64,000 bases of DNA from Candidatus Omnitrophota bacterium (GCA_016935525.1 JAFGQU010000012.1:1248-65247), one strand, 5' to 3'. Shown: positions 4,018-41,684, numbered from the stretch's first letter. Numbers and translations are program-made. Notes: generated from the letters alone by a model not told the origin.

Positions 4018-4083
4018 AGTCGCTAGTCGCTAGTCTATAGTAAAAATAGACCAGAGACTAGAGACTAGAGACCAGAGACTAGG
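4018..4083. repeat. Intergenic word-repeat hairpin of the CTAGTC/CTGGTC family (agtcgctagtcgctagtct ... agaccagagactagagactagagaccagagactag)
   Basis: Imperfect inverted repeat made of degenerate 6-nt words; same word family recurs at 19734-19760, 23110-23150, 26089-26165, 35220-35260 and 39485-39565. Confidence 0.7.
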
Positions 4084-6360: not shown

Positions 6361-6482
6361 AAAATATCCAATGACCAATTTCCAAGCACCAAATAAGATC
6401 CAAGTTCCAATGACTGAAACGGATTTATTTGATTATTGATAATTTGGTGATTGGTTATTATTTGGTTATTGGGATGTGATGT
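6361..6482. repeat. ACCAATTTCCAAG / TTGGTTATTGG word-repeat module (family G)
   Basis: ccaatgaccaatttccaagcaccaaataag...ttggtgattggttattatttggttattggg; a second copy lies at 36176-36338; both sit immediately upstream of a gene start. Confidence 0.7.
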
Positions 6483-6524
6483 TTGGTGATTATACGGGAT
6501 ATAAGTAAAAGAAAGGAAAAAGCT

Positions 6525-8484: not shown

Positions 8485-11133
8485 ATGAATTTGATGAAAA
8501 AGTTCGCTTTTTCACTGGTTATTTTTATGTATAGCCTAGGATTTTATTCGCTTTTATACAGCCAACCTCCCGGAGCCCAGGAACTCTTTAGATTAGGAAA
8601 ACAATATCTTGAGGAAGGCGATAGAGAAGAAGCGGTACGTATGTTTGAAATGAGTCTTTCCGCAGACCCTTCTTATAAAGAACCGCAGGTGTATCTTGCC
8701 CGTATCCGTCGGGATGCTATCCACCAAAACTTAAATCGTTATGATAAAGGCCAGATGCGTGAGGAGTCCTCATCTTCCGGCGCGGTGCAAAGCATGTTAC
8801 AGAAACCACCGTATTCGACCGCGAAACCTGAATCTTCTTCCGGCGGAGTTATCTTTAAAGGCCAATATCAGATGGGCGCCGGGTTCACCAGCGATGACGG
8901 ATACTGGAAACGTTCGGATTATAATCTGAACGAAACGAATTACCGGATGTTAAGCGATGACGGTTTTAATCAAAGAGAGAATACCTATGATCCGGCGATC
9001 TTTTCTTTTCTGCGTTTTGATCTAGATTATCCGGCACCCGAGGAAGGATGGGGCGTGCATTCCAAATTCGATATCAGTCCCTGGAGTTTTATCGGAGAAT
9101 CCGATCGGGTTACCGTGACCAGCCTTTGGGGTGACCGCGCTGACGTTGAATTGAAATACTGGGCAAATACCGGATATACTTTTTCTCAGACGATGAAAAC
9201 TGAGATCTTCGGTAACGCTTTTAACCTTCCCGAACTGAAAGTTGAAGATGATAAAGTCGCAGCGACTCAGGTGGCCGCAAACTGGGGCGATGTGTTTACT
9301 ATTCCCGAATTAAAAATTCACCGGGATTTCTGGCCAGTACGTGAACTCAATATGTATTATGAAGGCGACGGCCACCATATCGAAATCTTTCCGGTCGCGC
9401 TGGAAGATAAAGCGTACACTTCCGATGATCCGATCGGCCTCTCCAACCATCGCACGTACTGGGAAGAATCGCAGTGGTTGACGTCCTGGGTACCCGGAAA
9501 CAATAATACCGGAGCCGGAGATTATTCTCCGGGCGAATGGGATGATTCTCTGGCTTTTTTAGTACGTGATGCCGGAAACGTCCGGTTGACGAATTTACGG
9601 GGGATGTCGTTGGGTATGGATTGGGATGACGCTGTGTTTGATTTCGTGATCGCTTCTCCCAAGACTCTCTGGCAGGATTACGATTCGTTCGATACGCTCA
9701 ATAGTTTCAGCCGCCTGAAAATATCCGCGGCAGATAATCTTACGGTCGGCGGCCTCTACGGGATGAAGATGGGGTATAAAGAGAACGGTCTGGACGCGTT
9801 CAATCATGTCTGGGGAATAGACGCCAATTACGGAATGACTCCTGAGACGCAGCTCTTTTTTGAAGTCGCGACTTCCATTTCCGAATATGACCGTAAATCT
9901 ACTTTCGAACAGGAGAAAAAAGGCAGCTCTTACCATATTTCTCTGATACATTCTTCGGGAAACGAATTCGGTAAAAACTATTTCGAACTTAATCCTGAAA
10001 AGAATGAGCCGTTTTACCGGTCGCGGTTCTCGTTTACCCGTATGGATGGGGCATTCGAGAGCGCGCTTTCCAGTCACCGGTTTACCCGGGACGATACGTT
10101 CTGGGGGAGACATCTTACATTCCGGCAGCCTTACCGGCAGTTTTTTGCCGGGTTGTATGATTCGTCAATGGATTGGTATTATGTGGATCAGTTCCGTATC
10201 GGTGACGGTGTAGATTCGGGAAGAGATACGTTTAGTTTTCGTTATGAATCATTTAATCTTTTAGATGCTAAGTTGGACATGTTATTCGATATGCGTAACG
10301 TCCATACCACCGACGGAGCTTTTCTTGAAAACGTGAGCCGTTTGGAGACGACCTACCGGGCAACCGAGGACACTACCTTCAAAGCGTTAGGGCTGTACCA
10401 TAAATTGCCGCATACGGTTACCGGAGTGGATCCGGTCATGAAGACTTCGGATGATTTTTCTATTGCCAATAGCGAGATCGATGACGGCCAGGACCCTACC
10501 CTCAAGACGGTTTCGGTGGGAGGTGAACACTGGTTTACCGACTGGTGTGCGGCAAACGTTATCTGGGAACATACCAACGACGTGACGCTTGCGTATGATA
10601 ATTTTCCCCGCGGCCTCTTAAACGGCAGCGACACTTCATTGGTCCTGGGAAATTACCGGTATGACCGGACCTGGCTTTACAGCCAGCAAGATTTTCCCGA
10701 ACCGCCGTATCCTTATTTCGATATTTTTAAAGTCGGGTTTAAAGTGCAACCTTCGGATACGTTGAATATATATCTGGATTGGACCCGCAATGAATATGAA
10801 TGGGCTCAGATCATTGATGATAACATGAATCATGTGGGGCTGCAGGTCGAATATCTCCCGATGGATACACTGGGGATGTATTTTCGTTACGTATATTCCC
10901 GGATGAAAGATATCTCGGAACTGGTCGAAGACGGACGGATCGTCAAGCGCGACCACCATAATTTTGCCTGGGAAGCGCGGTATCGTCCCGAAAAAGACCG
11001 GGAATTTATTCTGCAGTACGGTGTGGGTAGAGGAGCGTACCTGGGGACCTCCACATCGACTCCGTTCGGAGGAGATGTGCCGGTATTGGATACGCAACAT
11101 ATTGTAAGACTGTATTATCAACAGGAGTTTTAA
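8485..11133 (+). CDS. Large outer-membrane-type protein (signal peptide, N-terminal TPR-like segment, beta-rich body, C-terminal Phe)
   Basis: Signal peptide; aromatic-rich alternating pattern and C-terminal ...YYQQEF typical of OM beta-barrels; no closer assignment possible. Confidence 0.45.
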   Translation: MNLMKKFAFSLVIFMYSLGFYSLLYSQPPGAQELFRLGKQYLEEGDREEAVRMFEMSLSADPSYKEPQVYLARIRRDAIHQNLNRYDKGQMREESSSSGAVQSMLQKPPYSTAKPESSSGGVIFKGQYQMGAGFTSDDGYWKRSDYNLNETNYRMLSDDGFNQRENTYDPAIFSFLRFDLDYPAPEEGWGVHSKFDISPWSFIGESDRVTVTSLWGDRADVELKYWANTGYTFSQTMKTEIFGNAFNLPELKVEDDKVAATQVAANWGDVFTIPELKIHRDFWPVRELNMYYEGDGHHIEIFPVALEDKAYTSDDPIGLSNHRTYWEESQWLTSWVPGNNNTGAGDYSPGEWDDSLAFLVRDAGNVRLTNLRGMSLGMDWDDAVFDFVIASPKTLWQDYDSFDTLNSFSRLKISAADNLTVGGLYGMKMGYKENGLDAFNHVWGIDANYGMTPETQLFFEVATSISEYDRKSTFEQEKKGSSYHISLIHSSGNEFGKNYFELNPEKNEPFYRSRFSFTRMDGAFESALSSHRFTRDDTFWGRHLTFRQPYRQFFAGLYDSSMDWYYVDQFRIGDGVDSGRDTFSFRYESFNLLDAKLDMLFDMRNVHTTDGAFLENVSRLETTYRATEDTTFKALGLYHKLPHTVTGVDPVMKTSDDFSIANSEIDDGQDPTLKTVSVGGEHWFTDWCAANVIWEHTNDVTLAYDNFPRGLLNGSDTSLVLGNYRYDRTWLYSQQDFPEPPYPYFDIFKVGFKVQPSDTLNIYLDWTRNEYEWAQIIDDNMNHVGLQVEYLPMDTLGMYFRYVYSRMKDISELVEDGRIVKRDHHNFAWEARYRPEKDREFILQYGVGRGAYLGTSTSTPFGGDVPVLDTQHIVRLYYQQEF

Positions 11134-14360: not shown

Positions 14361-14556
14361 ATGCCTTTCACCAAAAGGGCAAGACCTGCTCTCTTGATGA
14401 ATATACTTATTCACATCGTTTGATGAATACGTTTCTTCTTCAATAGGTAAAAATGGGGAAAGAGATCCTACTGGATCAAGAGGGATTGTTTGAACAACGT
14501 AGCTATATTTTGTGGATAAGCTGTGGATGAGCACAACATATTGTATTTTCTCCTTG

Positions 14557-14797: not shown

Positions 14798-17122
14798 ATG
14801 GATCAAAATCTTCAATTTTCCGCCAATTCTCTGACCGTCCTCAAAAAACGTTACCTTAAAAAAGATGCAAGCGGCGAAGTCTGTGAATCTCCTAAACAGA
14901 TGTTGGAAAGAGTTGCCGGAGCTATCGCCGGAATCGAACGGCGTTACGGAGCTTCCCGTAGCGTAGTACAGGAAGTGGAAGACGCTTTTTTTAATATGAT
15001 GGCAGAACTTAAGTTCATGCCTAATTCTCCTACACTGATGAATGCCGGAAAAGATCTGGGCCAGCTTTCGGCATGTTTTGTCGTTCCGGTCGAAGATTCC
15101 ATGGAATCTATTTTCGATGCGATAAAAGCTACCGCGCTTATTCATAAGACCGGCGGAGGTACGGGATTTAGTTTTTCTCAATTACGTCCTAAACGAAGTA
15201 TGGTCAAATCGACCGGAGGTGTCGCCTCAGGGCCGGTTTCGTTTATGAAAGTGTTTGACGCGGCGACTCAAGCCGTGAAACAGGGCGGGACCCGCCGGGG
15301 AGCGAACATGGGGATATTACGGGTCGATCATCCCGACATCAAAGAGTTCATTACCTGTAAAGAGAAGGAAGGAGATATTTCTAATTTTAATATTTCGGTC
15401 GCAGTCACCGATGAGTTTATGGAAAAGGTAGCCCGTAACGAATCCTATTCATTGGTCGACCCGCGTACGCACGAGGTAGTCGAAGAAATATCGGCTCAGG
15501 AAGTTTTTGATATGATCACTCAAGGCGCCTGGAAAAACGGCGAACCGGGAGTCGTCTTTATCGATAAGATAAATAGCGGGAATCCTACCTCTCATTTAGG
15601 GGCGATCGAGAGTACCAACCCTTGCGGCGAACAGCCTTTGTTACCGTTTGAATCGTGTAATTTAGGTTCGATAAACCTGGCTAAGATGCTGAAGGTCAAC
15701 GCTCAGGGGAAATATGAAGTCGATTGGGAAGAGCTGGGAAGGGTGACTCATCTGGTCACACGGTTTTTAGATAACGTCATCGATGCCAACAAATTCCCTT
15801 TACCCCAGATCAAGGAGAATACCACCCGTACCCGTAAAATAGGGTTAGGGATCATGGGCTGGGCGACGATGCTGGGATTTTTAGAGGTCCCTTACGAAAG
15901 TGAGGATGCCTTGAAACTGGCAAAAGAGTTGATGAATTTTATTCATACCCAGTCTAAAGAAGAGTCTATTTCTCTTGCCCGGGACCGGGGAGTATTTCCG
16001 TCCTGGCGGGGAAGTGTATGGGAAGAACAGGGAATAAAGATAAGGAACGCGACCCTTACGACGATCGCTCCTACCGGTTCGATAAGTATTATCGGAGGCC
16101 CGACGTCTACCGGTATCGAACCATTTTTCTCGCTGGTCTACTACCGTAATATTTTAGACGGAGAGAGGCTGTTGGAGGTCGAACCCAGTTTCGAATATGT
16201 CGCAAAAAAACGCGGTTTCTATTCGGAAGAATTAATGAAAAAAATCGCCTCCGGTGAAAGTATCCAGAAGATGCCGGAAATCCCGGATGATATCAAATTG
16301 ATGTTCAAAACGGCGCTGGAAATATCGCCGCTGATGCATGTGAAGATGCAGGCGGCTTTTCAGGAAGGGACGGATAACGCGGTATCAAAAACGATCAATC
16401 TGCCTAATAGCGCGACATTGAACGATGTAAAAGAGGCTTTGATTTATTCATATAAGCTGGGTTGTAAAGGGATGACGCTTTACCGTGACGGGTCACGCAG
16501 TGTCCAGGTGTTGACGGTAGGCAATGAAAAGAAGACTCAGCAGGAACAGGCTCTCAGTGAAGATTCTTCGCTCCGGATGGCGGTTGTCCATCCCAAACCC
16601 CGGCCGGAAATGATCATGGGGACTACGACTAAGATCACTACCGGGTGCGGTAATCTCTATATCACCGTCAATCAGGATCCTGACGGAGAGTTTTTTGAAG
16701 TGTTCACTCAGATGGGAAAAGCCGGAGGATGCGCGGCATCACAGCTGGAAGCGGTGGGGAGATTGATATCACTGGCGTTGCGCGGCGGAGTGGACCTTAA
16801 AGTCGTGGTCGAACAGTTGAAAGGTATCCGTTGTCCTTCTCCTAACTGGATGAACGGGAAAAAGATATTTTCCTGTGCCGATGCGATCGCGAGAGTCCTG
16901 GAAAAACGGGCCGCCGATCAAAAACAGCTGGTCAATATCAAGGTCTCTCAGGCCGAAGAAGAATTGGCGCTTAAGGTCACATCTGCTGCGCAGACGACCG
17001 TCAAAGTGAAAAAGGTCAGCCGGCTCAAGAATGTGGTAGGAGTATGCCCTGATTGCGGTTCGGCCTTGCGGCATCAGGAAGGCTGCCTGCTCTGTGACGC
17101 CTGCGGGTATAGTAAATGTTAA
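14798..17122 (+). CDS. nrdJ: Adenosylcobalamin-dependent (class II) ribonucleoside-diphosphate/triphosphate reductase with C-terminal Zn-ribbon
   Basis: Class II RNR motifs (NPCGEQPL, FESCNLGSINL, TIAPTGS); C-terminal CPDCG...CLLCDACG zinc ribbon. Confidence 0.9.
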   Translation: MDQNLQFSANSLTVLKKRYLKKDASGEVCESPKQMLERVAGAIAGIERRYGASRSVVQEVEDAFFNMMAELKFMPNSPTLMNAGKDLGQLSACFVVPVEDSMESIFDAIKATALIHKTGGGTGFSFSQLRPKRSMVKSTGGVASGPVSFMKVFDAATQAVKQGGTRRGANMGILRVDHPDIKEFITCKEKEGDISNFNISVAVTDEFMEKVARNESYSLVDPRTHEVVEEISAQEVFDMITQGAWKNGEPGVVFIDKINSGNPTSHLGAIESTNPCGEQPLLPFESCNLGSINLAKMLKVNAQGKYEVDWEELGRVTHLVTRFLDNVIDANKFPLPQIKENTTRTRKIGLGIMGWATMLGFLEVPYESEDALKLAKELMNFIHTQSKEESISLARDRGVFPSWRGSVWEEQGIKIRNATLTTIAPTGSISIIGGPTSTGIEPFFSLVYYRNILDGERLLEVEPSFEYVAKKRGFYSEELMKKIASGESIQKMPEIPDDIKLMFKTALEISPLMHVKMQAAFQEGTDNAVSKTINLPNSATLNDVKEALIYSYKLGCKGMTLYRDGSRSVQVLTVGNEKKTQQEQALSEDSSLRMAVVHPKPRPEMIMGTTTKITTGCGNLYITVNQDPDGEFFEVFTQMGKAGGCAASQLEAVGRLISLALRGGVDLKVVVEQLKGIRCPSPNWMNGKKIFSCADAIARVLEKRAADQKQLVNIKVSQAEEELALKVTSAAQTTVKVKKVSRLKNVVGVCPDCGSALRHQEGCLLCDACGYSKC

Positions 17123-17127
17123 TTAGG

Positions 17128-17235
17128 TTCGACCCGTTCGCGCGTGCTCGCGTTCGCCCGTTCAAATAACGTTTAGAAGATAATATTGGATATTTGATGA
17201 AGAACGGGTAAAACGGGGTAACGGGAAAACGGAGG
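17128..17235. repeat. AACGGG word-repeat hairpin module (cccgttcgcgcgtgctcgcgttcgcccgttc ... gaacgggtaaaacggggtaacgggaaaacgg)
   Basis: Inverted CCCGTT/AACGGG word arrays; related modules at 35095-35135 and 55968-56060; all follow gene 3' ends. Confidence 0.65.
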
Positions 17236-24642: not shown

Positions 24643-26088
24643 ATGATTATAAAAAATAACAAAGAAGACTTTCTAAGTTACCTCGAAGATACCTCAAATA
24701 TCGAGGGCCATGCCGAATCGCTGTATATTCCTCACACGCAGGATGAACTTGTCACGCTGGTCGCCAGGTGTAACCAGGAAAAAATACCGCTTACCATTTC
24801 CGCGGGCCGTACCGGGACAACCGGAGGATGTGTCCCCCAAGAAGGGGTGCTGGTGAGTCTTGAAGAGTTTAACCGGATACTGTCTATCGATAAAGAACAT
24901 AAACGGGTATCGGTCCAGGCCGGTGTAGTGCTTGAAGACCTGGAACGGGAATTAAACCGTCACCGGCTTGCCTTAAGGGCGCAACCGACCGAATCGCTTG
25001 CGTGTGTGGGAGGCGCGGTATCCACAGCCGCCTCGGGAGTGCGAGGGTACCGTTGGGGAGGTATACGCAAGTACGTTGAACGGATCAAGATCTTATTCGT
25101 CGACGGCACGGTCTTTGATATCTGTCGCGGCGAGATTTTTGCTCATCAGGGAAAAATAACGGTCCCTTTAGGCGGCCGGACAAAAGAAATACGATTGCCT
25201 TCTTACCGTATGCCGCACACTAAAACTCAGGCCGGATATTTTGTCGCTCCCGACATGGACCTGATCGATCTTTTTATCGGGAGCGAAGGTACGTTGGGGA
25301 TTATTTTAGAAATAGAATTCAGCGTCCAGGAGTTAGCTGAAGAGATATTTGATTGTATCGTGTTTTTTAAAGAAGAGAAAGACGCGTTCCGGTTTGTGGA
25401 AACAATTAAAGAAAAAAAATCTAAAAAGGCTCTTAACCCGACCAGCCTTGAATTCCTCGATGCCCGGTCTTTGAGATTTTTAGGTGAAGAATACCCGCAG
25501 GCCGCCTCTTACGCTGCGGCGGTATATATCGAGCAGGAAGAATCCTCCCCGGTATCTTCGATAGCCGCCTGGATTGAGCTTATCGAATCATCCGGCGCGC
25601 TGCCGAATGAGACCTGGTTCGGCGACAGCATCCTTACCCGGAAAAAGATATTTGAGTTTCGGCATAAACTGCCGCAACGTATCAACGAATTTCTCAAAAC
25701 CCATCGTCAACGTAAGCTCTCGACCGACGTCGCGGTGCCGGAAGAAAGGTTTCTTGAGATGTACGGATTCTATGCAAAAGAAGGCGCTTCCAGCGGTATT
25801 GAATTCGTCAATTTCGGGCATATCGGCGAAAATCATCTCCATTTCAACTTTTTACCGCGTAACGATGACGAATATAGGAAAGCCAAAGAATATACTTCCA
25901 AGTTTATTAAAAAAGCCATAGAATTAGGCGGTACGGTTTCGGCGGAACACGGTATCGGGAAACTGAAAAAAGAGTCTCTCCTTTTGATGTACGGGGAAGA
26001 AGCGGTCGGCCAGATGCGGGTGTTAAAGGGGCAGTTCGATCCCAACTGGATATTGAACCGGGGCAACATCTTTGATTGCAAGGAATAG
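24643..26088 (+). CDS. FAD-binding oxidoreductase, FAD-linked oxidase (GlcD/D-lactate dehydrogenase-like) family
   Basis: PCMH-type FAD-binding domain (ISAGRTGTTGG, GSEGTLGIILEIEF) plus C-terminal oxidase domain. Confidence 0.75.
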   Translation: MIIKNNKEDFLSYLEDTSNIEGHAESLYIPHTQDELVTLVARCNQEKIPLTISAGRTGTTGGCVPQEGVLVSLEEFNRILSIDKEHKRVSVQAGVVLEDLERELNRHRLALRAQPTESLACVGGAVSTAASGVRGYRWGGIRKYVERIKILFVDGTVFDICRGEIFAHQGKITVPLGGRTKEIRLPSYRMPHTKTQAGYFVAPDMDLIDLFIGSEGTLGIILEIEFSVQELAEEIFDCIVFFKEEKDAFRFVETIKEKKSKKALNPTSLEFLDARSLRFLGEEYPQAASYAAAVYIEQEESSPVSSIAAWIELIESSGALPNETWFGDSILTRKKIFEFRHKLPQRINEFLKTHRQRKLSTDVAVPEERFLEMYGFYAKEGASSGIEFVNFGHIGENHLHFNFLPRNDDEYRKAKEYTSKFIKKAIELGGTVSAEHGIGKLKKESLLLMYGEEAVGQMRVLKGQFDPNWILNRGNIFDCKE

Positions 26089-26165
26089 TTTCTGGTCTCT
26101 AGTTTCTAGTCTCTGGTGTCTGGCCTTTTTACTGGTGACTAAAGACCAGCGACTAGCGACTAAAT
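26089..26165. repeat. CTAGTC/CTGGTC word-repeat hairpin
   Basis: tttctggtctctagtttctagtctctggtgtctgg ... aaagaccagcgactagcgactaaat. Confidence 0.7.
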
Positions 26166-32538: not shown

Positions 32539-32654
32539 ATCACGTCACACGACACACGTCACATAGTCACACGTCGAAAAATTCCAATATACAATAAACA
32601 AATTACAAAATAGGGTCTACTATTTAGGAGATGTGTTGACAAAATGAAGAGATT

Positions 32655-32892
32655 CCAACCACAGAGGACACCGAGGGCACGGAGTAAAAATGAGAGGTTT
32701 CAATGAGAAGATATTTGGTTTCTTCCCATCGATGTTCGATGGGGGTCTCTTTGCAAAAACGGGAGAAAACCGGCAAAATATTTTCCGGTTTTCTTCGTTT
32801 TTACAAAGAAATACGCTTTTATGGAATAAAAGCACGAAACCAAATATCTTCATCTCTTCTCTGTGGAACTCTGTGAGCTCTGTGGTTAAATC
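32655..32892. mobile_element. MITE-like element copy 1 (TIR ttCCAACCACAGAGG ... CTCTGTGGTTaaat; cargo unrelated to copies 2 and 3)
   Basis: Shares ~30-bp termini with the elements at 35851-36089 and 37287-37526; interior full of hairpins; no ORF of significance. Confidence 0.6.
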
Positions 32893-32927
32893 TTCCCGGA
32901 TGGTTAATCCCTAGTAAATTAGTAAAG

Positions 32928-33070
32928 ATTTACGTCACACGTTGCCCTTCGGGCTCGCGAAGATGAGCACAGATTGAGAAGACCACAGATGATTGCAGAT
33001 ATCCTCGTATCCCCCCACCCTGCACCCGATACCCTGTACCCGGCACCCGAGATAGTAGAAACTGGACAGG
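32928..33070. repeat. Composite repeat: GTCACACG words + conserved 80-bp module + inverted GGGTGCAGGGTATCGGGTGCCG family
   Basis: 32932-33015 is ~90% identical to 48160-48237 (gcccttcgggctcgcgaagatgagcacagattgagaagaccacagatgattgcagatatcctcgtatcccc). Confidence 0.75.
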
Positions 33071-35715: not shown

Positions 35716-35850
35716 ATAGATCTTATTTTAACAAATTACCGGCAATTTTCAATTTTTTGATATAAAAAATATCTATGCCATTCATAGATCTATTGATAAT
35801 TATAGGGTTTTTTGTATTATTCCAGAAGATGCGTCCATAGAACGGATGGC

Positions 35851-36089
35851 TTTTCAACCACGGAGGACACAGAGAGCACAGAGAGGAATTGAGGGTATCC
35901 TCAATATTTGAGAAAATCTGTAATACTCAAACGCTCATTGAGCGTTTTGGGTCAGGGAGCGCAGGGCGCGTAAATAAAAAGGATTTTTTATTTCGCTGCC
36001 TGCGCTCCCTGAATGTTCCTGCGAGAGATATCTCGCAGGGTAATTACAGATTTTTTGCTCCGTGAACTCCGTGAGCTCTGTGGTTAAAT
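35851..36089. mobile_element. MITE-like element copy 2 (TIR ttCAACCACGGAGG ... CTCTGTGGTTaaat; internal 118-bp module in orientation A)
   Basis: Near-identical termini to copy 3; interior = three hairpins bounded by 12-bp inverted repeats AAAATCTGTAAT/ATTACAGATTTT. Confidence 0.75.
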
Positions 36090-36175
36090 ATCTTTCTGTG
36101 TAAAAAGGCCTTTTCGATTATACAAAATATCATAGTTGTCAAAGGGTACCGGAAACGGTATAATTAACCTTAATA

Positions 36176-36338
36176 TATATAAATATGGATTAAAATAACC
36201 AATTTCCAAGATACAATAACCAAATAATAACCAATAATCAAATTTCAATAACCAAACGAAGACTAAATACATTATTTGGTCATTGGGGATTGGGATTTGT
36301 TTGTATCTTGTTCCTTGGTTATTGGTGATTTAAAACGT
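36176..36338. repeat. ACCAATTTCCAAG / TTGGTTATTGG word-repeat module (family G, copy 2)
   Basis: accaatttccaagatacaataaccaaataataacc...ttccttggttattggtgatt; related to 6361-6482. Confidence 0.7.
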
Positions 36339-37182: not shown

Positions 37183-37286
37183 CGTAGCCGGCGTTTCCCT
37201 GCCTATTTGTCTTATCTAGAGACTATGTTATAATTGACCCATTATGAATCGTATTGTTTAGAAGATGTGTTTGCAGGGTGAAGGTA

Positions 37287-37526
37287 TTTCAACCACGGAG
37301 GACACAGAGAGCACAGAGAGGAATTGAGGGTATTCTCAATATTTGAGAAAATCTGTAATCATCCTGCGAGAAGCATCTCGCAGAAACGTTCAGGGAGCGC
37401 AGGCGGCAAAATAAAATATTCCTTTTATTTACGCGCTCTGCGCTTCCTGACCCAAAACGCTCAATGAGCGTTTGAGTATTACAGATTTTTTTTGCTCTGT
37501 GAACTCCGTGAGCTCTGTGGTTAAAT
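37287..37526. mobile_element. MITE-like element copy 3 (same termini as copy 2; internal 118-bp module inverted, orientation B)
   Basis: Reverse complement of copy-2 interior aligns at ~88% to copy-3 interior while the flanks stay co-linear. Confidence 0.75.
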
Positions 37527-37542
37527 TTCTTGAATTATACAT

Positions 37543-38490
37543 ATGGATGTAGTATTTTTCGCGATAATCAACCTTTTTTTCATTATCCTGCTCGGGTTCT
37601 ATCTGTACCGGAAAACGGTCCTTACCGAAGAATCGTTGAAATTCCTCACGTTTTTCGTGATCAACCTGTCGGTACCGTTTTTGTTTTTCTCGACGATCAT
37701 CCGTACGTTCGATCCGCGTCATAGCCCGCACGTGACGACGTTTTTAGTGTTAAGTGTTACGGTATTTCTTGTCGGTATCGCCGTCGGGTATATTTTTTCG
37801 TTGTGGTCGCCGCGCCCGGTACGCCGGGAATTCCTGAGCCTTGCCGCGTTCCAAAACGGCGGGTATTTACCGATGAACCTGGCGTTATTCCTGTTTTCGG
37901 CCGCGGATAAAGATACGTTCTTGGTCTATATATTTTTGTATCTTTTAGGGTTTAACGTATTGATGTGGTCGATCGGGAGTTTCCTGATATTCCGGAATAA
38001 AGATGCCAGGTTCGAGTTGCGGTCGTTATGTACGCCGCCGGTATTGAGTACTGCTATCGCGGTCGTGCTGGCGTATACCGGGTACGCCCGGTACGTACCG
38101 GAGGTAGTGTTGAGTCCGATGAAGATCATCGGTGACGTAAGTTTTCCGGTTTCAATGATCATCCTGGGGGCGTGGCTTGCGAAAAGCCGGATACCGCGCG
38201 GGTTTTCCGAGATCAAACCGTTACTTAATGTCGCGATAGTGAAACTGGTGATCGTACCGGCACTGTTTTTTGTCGCGGCGCTTAAACTGGATATCATGCC
38301 GTTTTTAGGTTTGTTTATCGTGATCGAAGCCAGTATGCCGTCAGCGGCGACGATGCCGATCATCGCGAACATACATAACGCCAATAGTGAGTTTACTTCT
38401 CAAGGAGTGTTTTTTACCCATCTGGTAGCGCTCGTTACGGTACCGGTATGGATCGAGTTATATTTGAAAGTAACCGGGTTTATGTTATGA
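37543..38490 (+). CDS. AEC (auxin efflux carrier) family transporter
   Basis: 10-TM protein with AEC-family N-terminal motif (AIINLFFIILLGFYLYRKTVLTEESLKFLTFFVINLSVPFLFF). Confidence 0.7.
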   Translation: MDVVFFAIINLFFIILLGFYLYRKTVLTEESLKFLTFFVINLSVPFLFFSTIIRTFDPRHSPHVTTFLVLSVTVFLVGIAVGYIFSLWSPRPVRREFLSLAAFQNGGYLPMNLALFLFSAADKDTFLVYIFLYLLGFNVLMWSIGSFLIFRNKDARFELRSLCTPPVLSTAIAVVLAYTGYARYVPEVVLSPMKIIGDVSFPVSMIILGAWLAKSRIPRGFSEIKPLLNVAIVKLVIVPALFFVAALKLDIMPFLGLFIVIEASMPSAATMPIIANIHNANSEFTSQGVFFTHLVALVTVPVWIELYLKVTGFML

Positions 38491-38948: not shown

Positions 38949-39015
38949 TAAATATCGTAAACCCGGTATAATTTTAAATTCATATAGAGTTCTTTAAAAA
39001 TATAATAAAATGTCC

Positions 39016-39285
39016 GGGCCGTGAGCTTCCCGATGTCGCCCGACGGCTTATCGGGATCAGCCTGAAGAAGAGCATTAAGGTTGCTGACAATCGGCTCCAG
39101 GCAGCGAGGGCTTCCGAGCCCAAGGTTGCTGGTTCAACGCTCGGATGTGGTTCGTTGACATTGATTTTGTGAAGTTTCGTCCAAGAACGTGCGGAGGTAG
39201 GCTGTTCGGGAACGAGTCGTCGGATACACTGACCCCTCGGGGTGATTTCGCCTACGGCGAAAAGTGTATACAGTTCCAGCACGGC
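39016..39285 (+). ncRNA. tRNA-Lys-derived RNA-like locus (degenerate tRNA-Lys copy with ~65-nt and ~130-nt insertions at D-loop and T-loop positions), preceded by a TATAAT box
   Basis: GGGCCGTGAGC matches the 5' acceptor/D-stem of the downstream tRNA-Lys; gagcccaaggttgctggttc and ttccagcacggc match its anticodon-3'/T-stem and acceptor-3' segments; a -10 box at 39001-39006; occupies the position where ssrA is often found. Confidence 0.4.
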
Positions 39286-39319
39286 ATATATAATGTTTTT
39301 TTTAAATTGATAAATATTC

Positions 39320-39484: not shown

Positions 39485-39565
39485 TTATAGTCGATAGGAT
39501 ATAGTCTCTAGTCGCTGGTCTTTAGTCTCCAGTAAAAAAGACCAGAAACCAGAGACTGAAGACTG
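39485..39565. repeat. CTAGTC/CTGGTC word-repeat hairpin (tagtctctagtcgctggtctttagtctccagt-aaaaaa-gaccagaaaccagagactgaagactg)
   Basis: Direct reading; could also act as the terminator of the tRNA cluster. Confidence 0.7.
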
Positions 39566-39571
39566 CTTGCC

Positions 39572-39999: not shown

Positions 40000-40135
40000 C
40001 GTCACATAGACACATAGTCACAAGGTCACACGTGTCTAAAAAAACAGAATATCAATTTGTCTGGATTCTTTCGTGTGACGTGTGTCGTGCTTGCCCCGTT
40101 GCGTAAACTCAAGGGGTGACTGTGTGACTTGGAAG
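40000..40135. repeat. GTCACACG-family composite repeat (includes gcttgccccgttgcg, the inverse of cgcaacggggcaagc at 48141-48155)
   Basis: gtcacgtcacatagacacatagtcacaaggtcacacgtg ... gtgtgacgtgtgtcgtgcttgccccgttgcg ... ggggtgactgtgtgac. Confidence 0.7.
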
Positions 40136-41589: not shown

Positions 41590-41684
41590 TGCACGTCACA
41601 TGTCACACGACACACGTCATACGTAGGAGCGTGGAGAAATGCGGGTTTGCTATTAGGAAAATTATATAATATAATTGTTTAAAT

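What the first reader, a model, noticed from the sequence alone, without database searches (positions are those of the whole stretch)
32655..32892. A third MITE-like copy shares only the termini, so the family has conserved ends and variable cargo
The element at 32655-32892 starts ttCCAACCACAGAGGACACCGAGGGCACGGAG and ends CTCTGTGGAACTCTGTGAGCTCTGTGGTTaaat. These are the same terminal-inverted-repeat words as the two copies flanking the methyltransferase. Its ~180-bp interior is unrelated and is made of nested hairpins (cccatcgatgttcgatggg; gaaaaccggcaaaatattttccggttttc; gaagatatttggtttc...gaaaccaaatatcttc). Shared ends with modular interiors are typical of MITE families mobilised in trans. The two short ORFs overlapping it (32690-32914 +, 32620-32853 -) are probably not genes.
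Basis: seen in the sequence. Interest (0 to 1): 0.55.

Follow-up and report, generated by a model that had tools for sequence, protein, structure and literature searches.

The report
Foldback repeat with shared word-built ends
The 238-base element is a real third copy of a hairpin-shaped intergenic repeat whose ends, built from three 9-base "CACAGAG" words, match its two neighbours while its interior does not. The same ends turn up in bacteria of many phyla and in phage contigs, so this is an unnamed, widespread kind of repeat and not a private MITE of this genome.

Summary
Copy C (32657-32891) shares its left end (70-76%) and right end (78-84%) with copies A and B. Its interior is at shuffled-sequence level (49-60%).

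A profile of 126 such ends from other genomes finds only the six arms of A, B and C in the window. The three copies also share a 5' extension, AGRAGATGYGT. The central 118 nt of A and B are inverted relative to each other.

The window comes from a Candidatus Omnitrophota chromosome. A syntenic relative lacks all three copies. B lies between the transporter gene's promoter and its start codon, with a duplication of at least 16 bp (about 28 bp) of the start region. These are derived insertions, and the methyltransferase is not a cassette.

The MITE reading is only partly supported. There is no 2-10 bp target duplication and no transposase partner. The same word-run ends occur alone, nested, or bracketing whole phage genes. 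They are found in at least 8 phylum-level groups and more than 120 viral contigs.

No Rfam family and no paper in the searched library covers them. Most likely this is a non-autonomous foldback repeat whose shell is the conserved unit.

The parts
32626..32896 (+). Copy C, whole unit: 5' extension, word-built hairpin and short tail (about 271 nt)
   Evidence: Boundaries come from the three-way alignment, the AGRAGATGYGT hits and the sequence itself.
32626..32656 (+). 5' extension of C. It begins AGGAGATGTGT and is shared only with A and B.
   Evidence: The motif has 3 hits in the window against 0.15 expected. Each lies 31-35 nt before a left end.
32657..32684 (+). Left end of C: AACCAC AGAG GA CAC CGAG GG CAC GGAG, three 9-nt words
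   Evidence: HMM hit with E = 2.6e-7.
32859..32891 (+). Right end of C: CTCTGTGGAACTCTGTGAGCTCTGTGGTTAAAT. It contains the 23-mer found across phyla.
   Evidence: HMM hit with E = 4.6e-6.
32707..32851 (+). Inner shell of C: a perfect 16-bp inverted repeat (32707-32722 / 32836-32851) enclosing three small hairpins. This is the unique 'cargo'.
   Evidence: Fold. No other copy anywhere. Identity to A/B is at shuffled level.
35824..36097 (+). Copy A, between the divergent EF-hand gene and the TylF promoter
   Evidence: Absent from the orthologous spacer of L051.
37260..37532 (+). Copy B, inserted between the AEC transporter promoter (-10 at 37229-37234) and the live start codon at 37543
35925..36042 (.). 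Central segment of A, bounded by the 12-bp inverted repeat AAAATCTGTAAT (35913-35924) / ATTACAGATTTT (36043-36054). It is inverted relative to B.
   Evidence: Repeat family I1. Identity is 89% as reverse complement against 64% direct.
37360..37477 (.). Central segment of B, in the opposite orientation to A. Bounded by 37348-37359 / 37478-37489.
37232..37259 (+). Left copy of the duplicated target at B. It holds the old AEC start, now a dead 5-codon ORF ATGAATCGTATTGTTTAG (37244-37261). The stop codon of that ORF is completed by the first two bases of the element.
   Evidence: Alignment to the empty sites in L051 and L053. L051 positions 10000-10015 align to both sides of B.
37533..37558 (+). 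Right copy of the duplicated target at B, with the live AEC start at 37543 (MDVVFF.., against MNVVFF.. in relatives)

Best explanation
Copy C is the third local member of a family of non-autonomous 'foldback' repeats in a Candidatus Omnitrophota chromosome.

**The conserved shell.** The conserved unit is an outer shell. On each side, reading inward from RWTTRA-CCAC, there is a run of three 9-nt words (RGAG-NN-CAC). In this family the shell also carries a 5' extension (AGRAGATGYGT...) and a tail (AAAT-N-TCTT). The two runs are inverted, so the unit folds back on itself.

**The cargo.** What lies between the runs is free to differ. In C it is one set of nested small hairpins. In A and B it is another set, which has also flipped between its own 12-bp inverted repeats.

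**What is shown.**
- The units are derived insertions into intergenic DNA.
- At least one insertion (B) duplicated about 16-28 bp of the target.
- B separated a gene from its promoter without killing it.

**What is inferred.**
- A trans-acting protein recognises the repeated words at the ends, because each arm keeps the word sequence rather than perfect complementarity to its partner.
- Cargo differences arise by insertion of other small palindromes into the central loop and by flip-flop recombination between arms.
- The effect on the host is mainly a long stable stem-loop in the transcripts that read through it.

**Wider class.** The shell belongs to a much larger class of word-run inverted repeats. 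They occur across phyla and in phages. They can enclose a 10-nt loop, small hairpins or whole genes.
For: **Family and boundaries**
- Word hits and the extension motif are confined to the three copies.
- The three-way alignment and the segment identities show shared ends with an unrelated interior.
- A profile of 126 foreign arms finds only these six arms in the window.

**Structure**
- Fold z-scores are -10.5 to -11.9.

**Derived insertions**
- Syntenic L051, L052 and L053 have short spacers without the elements. TylF is conserved in place.
- A duplicated start region with a dead remnant ORF flanks B.

**Interior flip**
- The central segments of A and B are 89% identical as reverse complement, between 12-bp inverted repeats.

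**Sequence-level conservation of the arms**
- Over 28 distinct paired elements, 630 positions are Watson-Crick. There are 67 non-wobble mismatches, which by eye fall mostly in the NN spacers, while the words stay constant.

**Shell with variable content elsewhere**
- Simple 66-80-nt hairpins occur in Bacteroides and Gemmatirosa.
- Nested forms occur in L012, L043, L054, L076 and L092.
- The number of words per arm varies from 1 to 7.
- One related element, in a MAG labelled Chlamydiae, is a bona fide MITE with a 10-bp target duplication. The word hairpin sits in its centre (L005).

**Not a strong terminator**
- B lies between the only recognisable AEC promoter and the AEC-smpB genes.
Against: - No short target-site duplication flanks A or C. 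Flanking trinucleotides at paired elements are complementary, so they are part of the repeat rather than direct.
- A duplication of about 28 bp is unusual for DDE transposases.
- No autonomous partner was found. Inverted runs 0.5-3.6 kb apart bracket terminase, portal and aminotransferase genes, not transposases.
- Most ends in viral contigs (167 of 181) have no partner within 1.5 kb.
- Exact 23-mer conservation in genomes of 33-62% GC fits a selected function at least as well as selfish spread.
- Large surveys find MITEs mostly genus-specific (PMC11602168).
- Only three copies, all within 4.9 kb and in one orientation, can be seen. The rest of this genome was not available.
- With the two relatives being closer to each other (78%) than to the window (70-71%), only B is polarised as an insertion, by its duplication.
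Confidence: 0.5

Rival explanations
1. The element is a functional gene-boundary 'punctuation' element, not a transposon. The word-run inverted repeats would be selected cis-acting sites, for example long processing or stability stems in RNA, or binding arrays for a conserved host or phage factor. They would spread by recombination and horizontal transfer. A, B and C would be elaborate local versions.
For: - Word sequence is conserved across at least 8 phylum-level groups and in phage contigs.
- The outer side of the run abuts stop or start codons, with gaps of 0-30 nt in many loci.
- The run ends 4 nt before a terminase ATG and 7 nt before ATGs in L002 and L003.
- Inverted runs bracket phage core genes.
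- In the window, 12 of 29 word-runs of all kinds start no more than 10 nt after a stop codon.
- Word-run modules are 85-97% identical between the window and L051, while genes are 67-78% identical.
Against: - There is no consistent orientation relative to flanking genes.
- There is no strand bias in folding or in wobble pairs.
- Arms are not kept complementary in the spacers.
- No Rfam family matches.
- The relatives do without A, B and C at the same spacers.
- B's duplicated target is the signature of an insertion event, not of a conserved regulatory site.
Confidence: 0.3
2. The element is a family of structured non-coding RNA genes of about 270 nt. Each would be transcribed from an upstream promoter, with the word-built stem closing a rod-like RNA.
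For: - Promoter-like sites lie 4-31 nt upstream of the 5' extension of each copy: 35793-35820 for A, 37207-37234 for B and 32566-32595 for C.
- The copies have sharp common 5' and 3' boundaries.
- Predicted structure is very stable.
- RNA fold energy is 3-5 kcal/mol better on the + strand for all three copies.
Against: - Promoter-like hits in the region are not enriched over shuffles (15 against 11.6).
- The interior is unrelated between C and A/B, and is inverted between A and B. This is hard to reconcile with one RNA function.
- No Rfam match.
- Absent from relatives.
Confidence: 0.1
3. The elements are integron attC-like or Xer/dif-like recombination sites that mark gene cassettes: TylF between A and B, and the Phd/ParE module after C.
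For: - The right end finishes GTTAAAT, which fits the attC R' consensus GTTRRRY. It also resembles the outer XerD arm TTATGTTAAAT. Both consensus sequences are taken from general knowledge.
- A and B flank a single gene, and a toxin-antitoxin pair follows C.
Against: - TylF, Phd and ParE sit in the same neighbourhood in a relative that has none of the elements.
- No integrase was found among the window ORFs scanned.
- The ends are direct 9-nt word arrays. They are not two inverted binding boxes around a 6-8 bp spacer.
- Sites elsewhere are scattered singly rather than in arrays.
Confidence: 0.03
4. The shared ends are chance or low-complexity similarity. They would reflect only the general richness of short tandem words in this organism's intergenic DNA.
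For: Much of the window's intergenic DNA is made of degenerate 7-9-nt word-runs, often in inverted pairs.
Against: - CACRGAG words are confined to the three elements (13 of 14 hits, 0.47 expected).
- The same three places also share a non-repetitive 11-mer extension and flanking bases.
- The HMM finds no other hit.
Confidence: 0.02

Closest known systems
Bacterial MITEs, for example Correia/NEMIS elements of Neisseria and ERIC elements of enterobacteria (properties from general knowledge; MITE survey PMC11602168)
   Same: Small, noncoding and intergenic, with inverted ends and a fold-back structure. Present or absent between related genomes. Can sit between a promoter and a gene. ERIC-type elements also exist as short and long forms that differ by internal insertions.
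   Different: No 2-10 bp target duplication and no matching transposase. The ends are arrays of 9-nt direct words. The same ends are shared across phyla and phages, whereas MITE clusters are overwhelmingly genus-specific.
REP / BIME / REPIN elements mobilised by RAYT (TnpA-REP) HUH enzymes (PMC6006769)
   Same: Intergenic palindromic repeats, often just after stop codons. Occur singly or as inverted doublets forming long hairpins. Mosaic combinations of modules. High copy number in some genomes (at least 71 places on two Gemmatirosa megaplasmids).
   Different: The arms are not themselves small hairpins, and there is no GT[AG]G 'foot'. No RAYT gene was seen. The word sequences are absent from that survey's REP tables. 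REP families are species- or genus-specific.
Foldback (FB) transposons of Drosophila (from general knowledge)
   Same: Long terminal inverted repeats that are themselves built of short degenerate tandem repeats, with variable repeat number. The central region is heterogeneous and unrelated between copies.
   Different: FB elements are eukaryotic and kilobase-scale, and some copies carry coding sequences. No homology is implied. The resemblance is architectural only.
PeSL (promoter-early stem-loop) cassettes of T4-type phages (from general knowledge)
   Same: Short repeated intergenic regulatory stem-loop modules that bracket genes in phage genomes and are thought to mediate modular shuffling.
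   Different: PeSLs carry a recognisable early promoter and are confined to one phage group. No promoter can be recognised in the word-runs.
Hairpin-associated small inversions ('flip-flop') in chloroplast DNA, and parvovirus terminal hairpins (from general knowledge)
   Same: The segment between two short inverted repeats exists in both orientations, as between the centres of A and B.
   Different: Here the two orientations are seen in two paralogous copies, not as isomers of one locus. The inversion rate is unknown.

Membership tests
MITE | Terminal inverted repeats | tested here: met
   The left and right word-runs are inverted (21-22 of 30 positions complementary). Both arms match one profile read inward.
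MITE | Small (under about 600 bp) and without coding capacity | tested here: met
   Units are 271-274 nt. ORFs over them are palindrome artefacts with no Pfam hit.
MITE | Short direct target-site duplication (2-10 bp) flanking each copy | tested here: not met
   No short direct repeat flanks A or C. B has a duplication of at least 16 bp, about 28 bp. At paired elements elsewhere the flanking trinucleotides are complementary, not direct.
MITE | Insertion polymorphism (filled versus empty sites) | tested here: met
   L051, L052 and L053 have empty TylF-AEC spacers. L051 also has an empty EF-hand-TylF spacer. For C the upstream gene is not orthologous, so that site is only suggestive.
MITE | Many dispersed copies in the same genome | not testable with these tools
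   Only this 64-kb window and a 1.39-kb read-assembly contig of the organism are available. Three copies lie within 4.9 kb.
MITE | An autonomous element with the same ends that encodes the transposase | tested here: not met
   No transposase or integrase was found among the 30 larger window ORFs scanned with Pfam. Ends 0.5-3.6 kb apart in other loci bracket terminase, portal or aminotransferase genes. Whole genomes were not searched.
REP/REPIN (RAYT-associated) | Unit is a short imperfect palindrome with a conserved 5' GT[AG]G tetranucleotide at its foot | tested here: not met
   The arms are direct 9-nt word arrays starting RWTTRA-CCAC. They are not listed among REP sequences in PMC6006769.
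REP/REPIN (RAYT-associated) | A RAYT (TnpA-REP) gene flanked by the repeats somewhere in the genome | not testable with these tools
   The genome beyond the window is not available. None was seen among the window ORFs scanned.
Integron attC site / gene cassette | Cassette gene is mobile together with its attC; arrays of cassettes lie next to an intI gene | tested here: not met
   TylF and Phd/ParE are conserved in place in a relative that lacks the elements. No integrase was found among the ORFs scanned.
Integron attC site / gene cassette | R''/L''...L'/R' boxes with RYYYAAC ... GTTRRRY | tested here: inconclusive
   GTTAAAT fits GTTRRRY. The left ends here read TTTCAAC or TTCCAAC, so the first base is not R. 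No L boxes can be recognised, and no attC model was available.
Rfam structured RNA families | Match to a curated covariance model | tested here: not met
   Only tRNAs reach gathering score. Nothing over the elements at E <= 5. Simple hairpins in Bacteroides and Gemmatirosa give only sub-threshold eukaryotic miRNA-precursor hits.

The most novel reading that the evidence does not exclude
The ends of this element would be one instance of an undescribed class of gene-boundary inverted repeats, RWTTRA-CCAC(RGAG-NN-CAC)n. The class is carried across phyla and by phages. It would be recognised by a conserved trans-acting factor that reads the 9-nt words. The repeats can enclose anything from a short loop to whole genes. 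The many other 7-9-nt word-run hairpins that fill Omnitrophota intergenic spacers would be the same kind of object with other words.
Probability: 0.3. Interest if true: 0.8.

Novelty: new variant of a known kind. Interest (0 to 1): 0.6.

Why it matters
**Why the case is unusual.** Intergenic palindromic repeats such as REP, ERIC, Correia elements and MITEs are normally private to a species or genus. Each is tied to its own enzyme. Here a repeat has ends that are recognisable, down to exact 23-mers, in at least 8 phylum-level groups:
- Omnitrophota, Acidobacteriota, Bacteroidota and Gemmatimonadota;
- Ignavibacteria, Thermodesulfobacteriota/Deltaproteobacteria, Stahlbacteria and a Chlamydiae-labelled MAG;
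- more than 120 viral contigs.

No Rfam family covers it, and no paper in the searched library contains its word sequence.

**What it would mean if true.** If the words are read by a shared factor, this is a general and overlooked piece of bacterial and phage genome punctuation.

**Why it is testable.** Simple versions sit in cultured, genetically tractable Bacteroides, in the gmd-fcl and dnaN-exonuclease spacers.

**Local consequences.**
- Such an element can land between a promoter and a start codon and be tolerated.
- The TylF methyltransferase 'flanked by two copies' is not a mobile cassette.

Tried and rejected
- **Integron or Xer site idea.** It was prompted by GTTAAAT and by single genes between copies. 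It was rejected by synteny with L051 and the absence of an integrase.
- **Terminator.** The stems are not followed by a T-run. B lies upstream of AEC-smpB with no promoter-like site between the element and the gene.
- **Outward promoter (TGGTTAAAT as an extended -10).** The position equivalent to -11 is never A. The same end also abuts the 3' ends of convergent genes.
- **Shine-Dalgarno or stop-codon junction element.** 83 of 115 viral instances have TAA/TGA/TAG before CCAC. Only 10 of those end an upstream ORF, and there is no orientation bias to the flanking genes.
- **RNA strand test by wobble pairs.** There is no bias.
- **DnaA-box resemblance (TTAACCACA against TTATCCACA).** There is one mismatch at a conserved T and no supporting context.
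- **Apparent interior flip between L032 and L033.** It turned out to be inversion of the whole element.
- **Transposase between distant inverted ends.** The genes there are terminase, portal and aminotransferase.
- **Literature searches** by sequence words and by topic found nothing relevant. REP tables in PMC6006769 lack the words.
- **Target duplications at A and C.** Only weak AT-rich similarities were found, so the result is inconclusive.

Full report
**1.

The element reads exactly as quoted. From AACCAC (32657) to GGTTAAAT (32891) it is a closed fold-back.
- The outer stem is made of three 9-nt words per arm. The left arm is AACCAC-AGAG-GA-CAC-CGAG-GG-CAC-GGAG. The right arm is CTCTGTG-GAA-CTCTGTG-AG-CTCTGTGG-TTAAAT.
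- Inside it is a perfect 16-bp inner stem (32707-32722 / 32836-32851).
- Inside that are three small hairpins.

As single-stranded DNA it folds at -64.5 kcal/mol against -26.2 +/- 3.5 for shuffles (z = -10.9). Copies A (35855-36089) and B (37290-37526) fold the same way.

**2. Shared ends, unrelated interior**

| Segment | C vs A/B |
|---|---|
| Left part | 70-76% |
| Right part | 78-84% |
| Interior | 49-60% |

Shuffled interiors give 52.9 +/- 2.9% (maximum 60.5%). The interior of C has no other copy in the window or in about 1 Mb of fetched DNA.

The similarity of the ends is not a by-product of general word richness.
- The double word CACRGAGNNCACRGAG (up to 2 mismatches) has 14 hits against 0.47 expected. 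Thirteen lie in A, B or C.
- A profile HMM built from 126 arms taken from other genomes and phage contigs finds exactly the six arms of A, B and C (E 1e-8 to 5e-6). The next hit has E = 2.3.

- All three copies carry AGRAGATGYGT 31-35 nt upstream of the left arm. These are the only three occurrences in the window. All three end AAAT-N-TCTT. The unit is therefore about 271 nt with sharp common boundaries: C 32626-32896, A 35824-36097, B 37260-37532.
- The central 118 nt of A and B are 89% identical as reverse complements and 64% identical read directly. They are bounded by the 12-bp inverted repeat AAAATCTGTAAT / ATTACAGATTTT. The outer 80 and 44 nt of A and B are direct and 95% identical, so only the core has flipped.

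The small ORFs over the elements have no Pfam match.

**3. Context**

The window is ordinary chromosome. Identified genes include Rnf, enolase, class II ribonucleotide reductase, an RND efflux pump, SmpB, archease-RtcB and SerRS. No transposase or integrase was found among the 30 larger ORFs scanned with Pfam. Every named homologue of the AEC transporter (37543-38490) is annotated Candidatus Omnitrophota or Omnitrophica.

A syntenic contig from a relative, L051 (GCA_964483625.1, about 70% aa identity), carries much of the same gene neighbourhood: nitroreductase, Dph-like, ZIP, Phd, ParE, tRNA-Ser, EF-hand, TylF, AEC, SmpB, archease, RtcB. The ZIP gene sits in a different position.

| Spacer | L051 | Window |
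|---|---|---|
| TylF-AEC | 65 nt | 360 nt |
| EF-hand-TylF | 123 nt | 624 nt |

L052 and L053 also have 65-69-nt TylF-AEC spacers. L051 has no CACRGAG double word in 16 kb. TylF is therefore ancestral at this position. It is not a cassette delivered between two repeats.

**4. B is an insertion with a long target duplication**

In the relatives the AEC promoter-like sequence (TTGTCT-17-TATAAT) sits 9 nt before the ATG:

    TATAATTATCCCATTATGAACGTGGTGTTTTTT

In the window the same promoter is followed by:

    TATAATTGACCCATTATGAATCGTATTGTTT|AGAAGATG...[B]...AAATTTCTTG|AATTATACATATGGATGTAGTATTTTTC

- The left copy is a dead 5-codon ORF. Its stop codon is completed by the first two bases of B.
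- The right copy carries the live start (MDVVFF.., against MNVVFF.. in relatives).
- BLAST aligns L051 positions 10000-10015 to both sides of the 282-nt insertion.

The duplication is at least 16 bp and probably about 28 bp. This polarises B as an insertion. That matters because the two relatives are closer to each other (78%) than to the window.

B now lies between the only recognisable promoter and AEC-smpB. By inference it cannot be a strong terminator in this orientation.

No comparable duplication could be established for A or C. The gene upstream of C is not orthologous to its L051 counterpart.

**5. The ends are not private to this genome**

The exact 23-mer CTCYGTGAGCTCTGTGGTTAAAT occurs in 16 loci of 10 species-representative MAGs. 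Their labels are:
- Acidobacteriota, including a 4.8-Mb single-chromosome MAG assembly
- Pyrinomonadaceae
- Ignavibacteriaceae
- Chitinophagales and Cytophagales
- Thermodesulfobacteriota and Deltaproteobacteria
- Stahlbacteria
- Chlamydiae

It also occurs in 33 metagenome contigs. Their GC content ranges from 33 to 62%.

Close variants with GGAC spacers occur elsewhere too.
- They fill at least 71 places on the two megaplasmids of cultured Gemmatirosa kalamazoonensis, as hairpins nested inside GCAGAGG-word hairpins.
- They form simple 66-80-nt hairpins in Bacteroides ovatus and B. finegoldii, in the gmd-fcl and dnaN-exonuclease spacers.
- They occur in more than 120 IMG/VR viral contigs.

The pooled consensus reads inward RWTTRA-CCAC-A-GAG-GA-CAC-A-GAG-RR-CAC-R-GAG.

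The arrangements are diverse.
- About half of the 23-mer loci have a partner arm, giving hairpins of 77-332 nt with unrelated interiors.
- The others are solo.
- L021 and L029 have the two arms in reversed order.
- In the Chlamydiae-labelled MAG the word hairpin is the centre of a 220-bp MITE. That MITE has its own outer inverted repeat and a 10-bp target duplication (L005).
- L012, L043, L054, L076 and L092 show nesting.
- Word number varies from 1 to 7 per arm.
- In viral contigs 167 of 181 ends have no partner within 1.5 kb.
- Where inverted ends lie 0.5-3.6 kb apart they bracket terminase, portal or aminotransferase genes, not transposases.

The outer side of a run usually abuts a gene boundary, either a stop or a start, often within 0-30 nt. 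There is no preferred orientation to the flanking genes.

Across 28 distinct paired elements the arms keep the words but not complementarity. There are 630 Watson-Crick positions, 37 G-T, 22 A-C and 67 other mismatches. By eye the mismatches fall mostly in the 2-nt spacers. This points to sequence-level rather than purely structural constraint.

**6. The wider habit of this genome**

Many spacers in the window are built from degenerate 7-9-nt word-runs, often as inverted pairs.
- Examples are AGACYAG, GTCACAnn, CCCGTTC/GAACGGG, AACCAAT and GAAATAC.
- Twelve of 29 runs start no more than 10 nt after a stop codon.
- Such modules are 85-97% identical between the window and L051 although they sit at different spacers. 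Genes are only 67-78% identical.

The CACRGAG shell is one word family among many. It is the one that is demonstrably shared across phyla.

**7. What it most likely is**

The best reading (about 0.5) is a non-autonomous foldback repeat whose shell is the conserved, recognised unit and whose content is free.

Shown:
- family membership
- structure
- derived insertion
- a long target duplication at B
- the core inversion
- shell-with-variable-content elsewhere

Inferred:
- a trans-acting protein reads the words
- cargo changes by nested insertion and flip-flop recombination
- the host effect is a long stem in read-through transcripts

The main rival (about 0.3) is that the word-run repeats are selected gene-boundary sites, either RNA processing or stability stems or protein-binding arrays. 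In that case A, B and C would be elaborate local forms. Cross-phylum conservation, position at gene boundaries and bracketing of phage core genes favour this reading. The lack of orientation or strand bias, the absence from relatives and B's duplication argue against it.

An ncRNA gene family (about 0.1), attC/Xer sites (about 0.03) and chance (about 0.02) are less likely, for the reasons given in the rival list.

**8. Comparison with known kinds**

- The element works like a MITE or REPIN. It fails two defining MITE tests here: a short target duplication and a transposase partner. It fails the REP foot test.
- Its ends built of short tandem words with a heterogeneous centre resemble Drosophila Foldback elements in architecture only.
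- MITE clusters are reported to be overwhelmingly genus-specific (PMC11602168).
- The RAYT/REP survey (PMC6006769) does not list these words.
- Rfam 15 has no matching family.
- Full-text searches for the word sequences return only eukaryotic primers.

I file it as a new variant of a known kind. There is a reasonable chance that the wider class is something not yet described.

**9. Limits**

- The rest of this genome could not be searched.
- Taxon labels of MAGs are as deposited.
- Gene calls in fetched loci are crude ORF calls.
- Nothing about transcription or protein binding could be tested.

Noticed in passing
window 39007-39316: Between smpB and tRNA-Lys lies a stretch of about 310 nt. It begins GGGCCGTGAGCT and ends CAGTTCCAGCACGGC, which are tRNA-Lys-like acceptor and T-arm pieces around about 300 nt of insert. 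It is conserved in L051 11559-11993 (74-86%). Neither ARAGORN nor any Rfam model, tmRNA included, calls it. It may be an unusual tmRNA or an interrupted tRNA.
   Followed up: partly
window 14511-14532: TGTGGATAAGC occurs twice in tandem. This gives two perfect DnaA-box 9-mers, about 270 nt upstream of the class II ribonucleotide reductase gene at 14798-17122.
   Followed up: no
window 36194-36330 (also 6363-6493): An AACCAAT/ATTGGTT word-run hairpin sits between the TylF promoter (36136-36164) and its ATG (36340). It is absent from L051. A 23-mer of it is shared with the unrelated metagenome contig L018, which also carries a CACAGAG run next to it.
   Followed up: partly
window-wide, e.g. 4018-4082, 17127-17232, 26086-26162, 39487-39570, 40001-40100, 54913-55011, 55966-56066: Many intergenic spacers are inverted pairs of degenerate 7-9-nt word-runs with A-rich loops. 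Twelve of 29 runs start no more than 10 nt after a stop codon.
   Followed up: partly
window 32543-32574, 41592-41624; L051 7155-7186, 8520-8545: The CGTCACACGACACACGTCACATAG word-run is 96-97% identical between the window and L051, while genes are 67-78% identical. In both genomes it starts 2-3 nt after the stop codon of non-homologous genes.
   Followed up: partly
window 32932-33014 and 48156-48238; L051 8041-8112: An 83-nt module with CACAGATT-type words is 93% identical between two window spacers. It is 86% identical to a different spacer in the relative, so modules relocate between spacers.
   Followed up: partly
L051 9966-10003 and 9078-9104; L053 905-943: In the relatives TATAAT lies 9 nt before the ATG of both the AEC and TylF genes. 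This geometry suggests leaderless or near-leaderless mRNAs.
   Followed up: no
L005 7390-7620 (also L012, L015, L016, L009): The MAG labelled Chlamydiae carries a multi-copy MITE of about 220 bp. It has the outer inverted repeat GGCTTTGTTGCGTAAT... and a 10-bp target duplication, GATACAGTAG, in L005. The CACAGAG hairpin is at its centre. L012 has a further palindrome inserted in that centre.
   Followed up: partly
L100 3839-3863; L165 2819-2843: In a group of related 60%-GC phage contigs a word-run ends 4 nt before the start codon of the large terminase gene. Runs in inverted orientation bracket the terminase region.
   Followed up: partly
window 43779-47813 (-) and 8485-11133 (+): ORFs of 1344 aa and 882 aa have no Pfam domain at E <= 0.001.
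   Followed up: no
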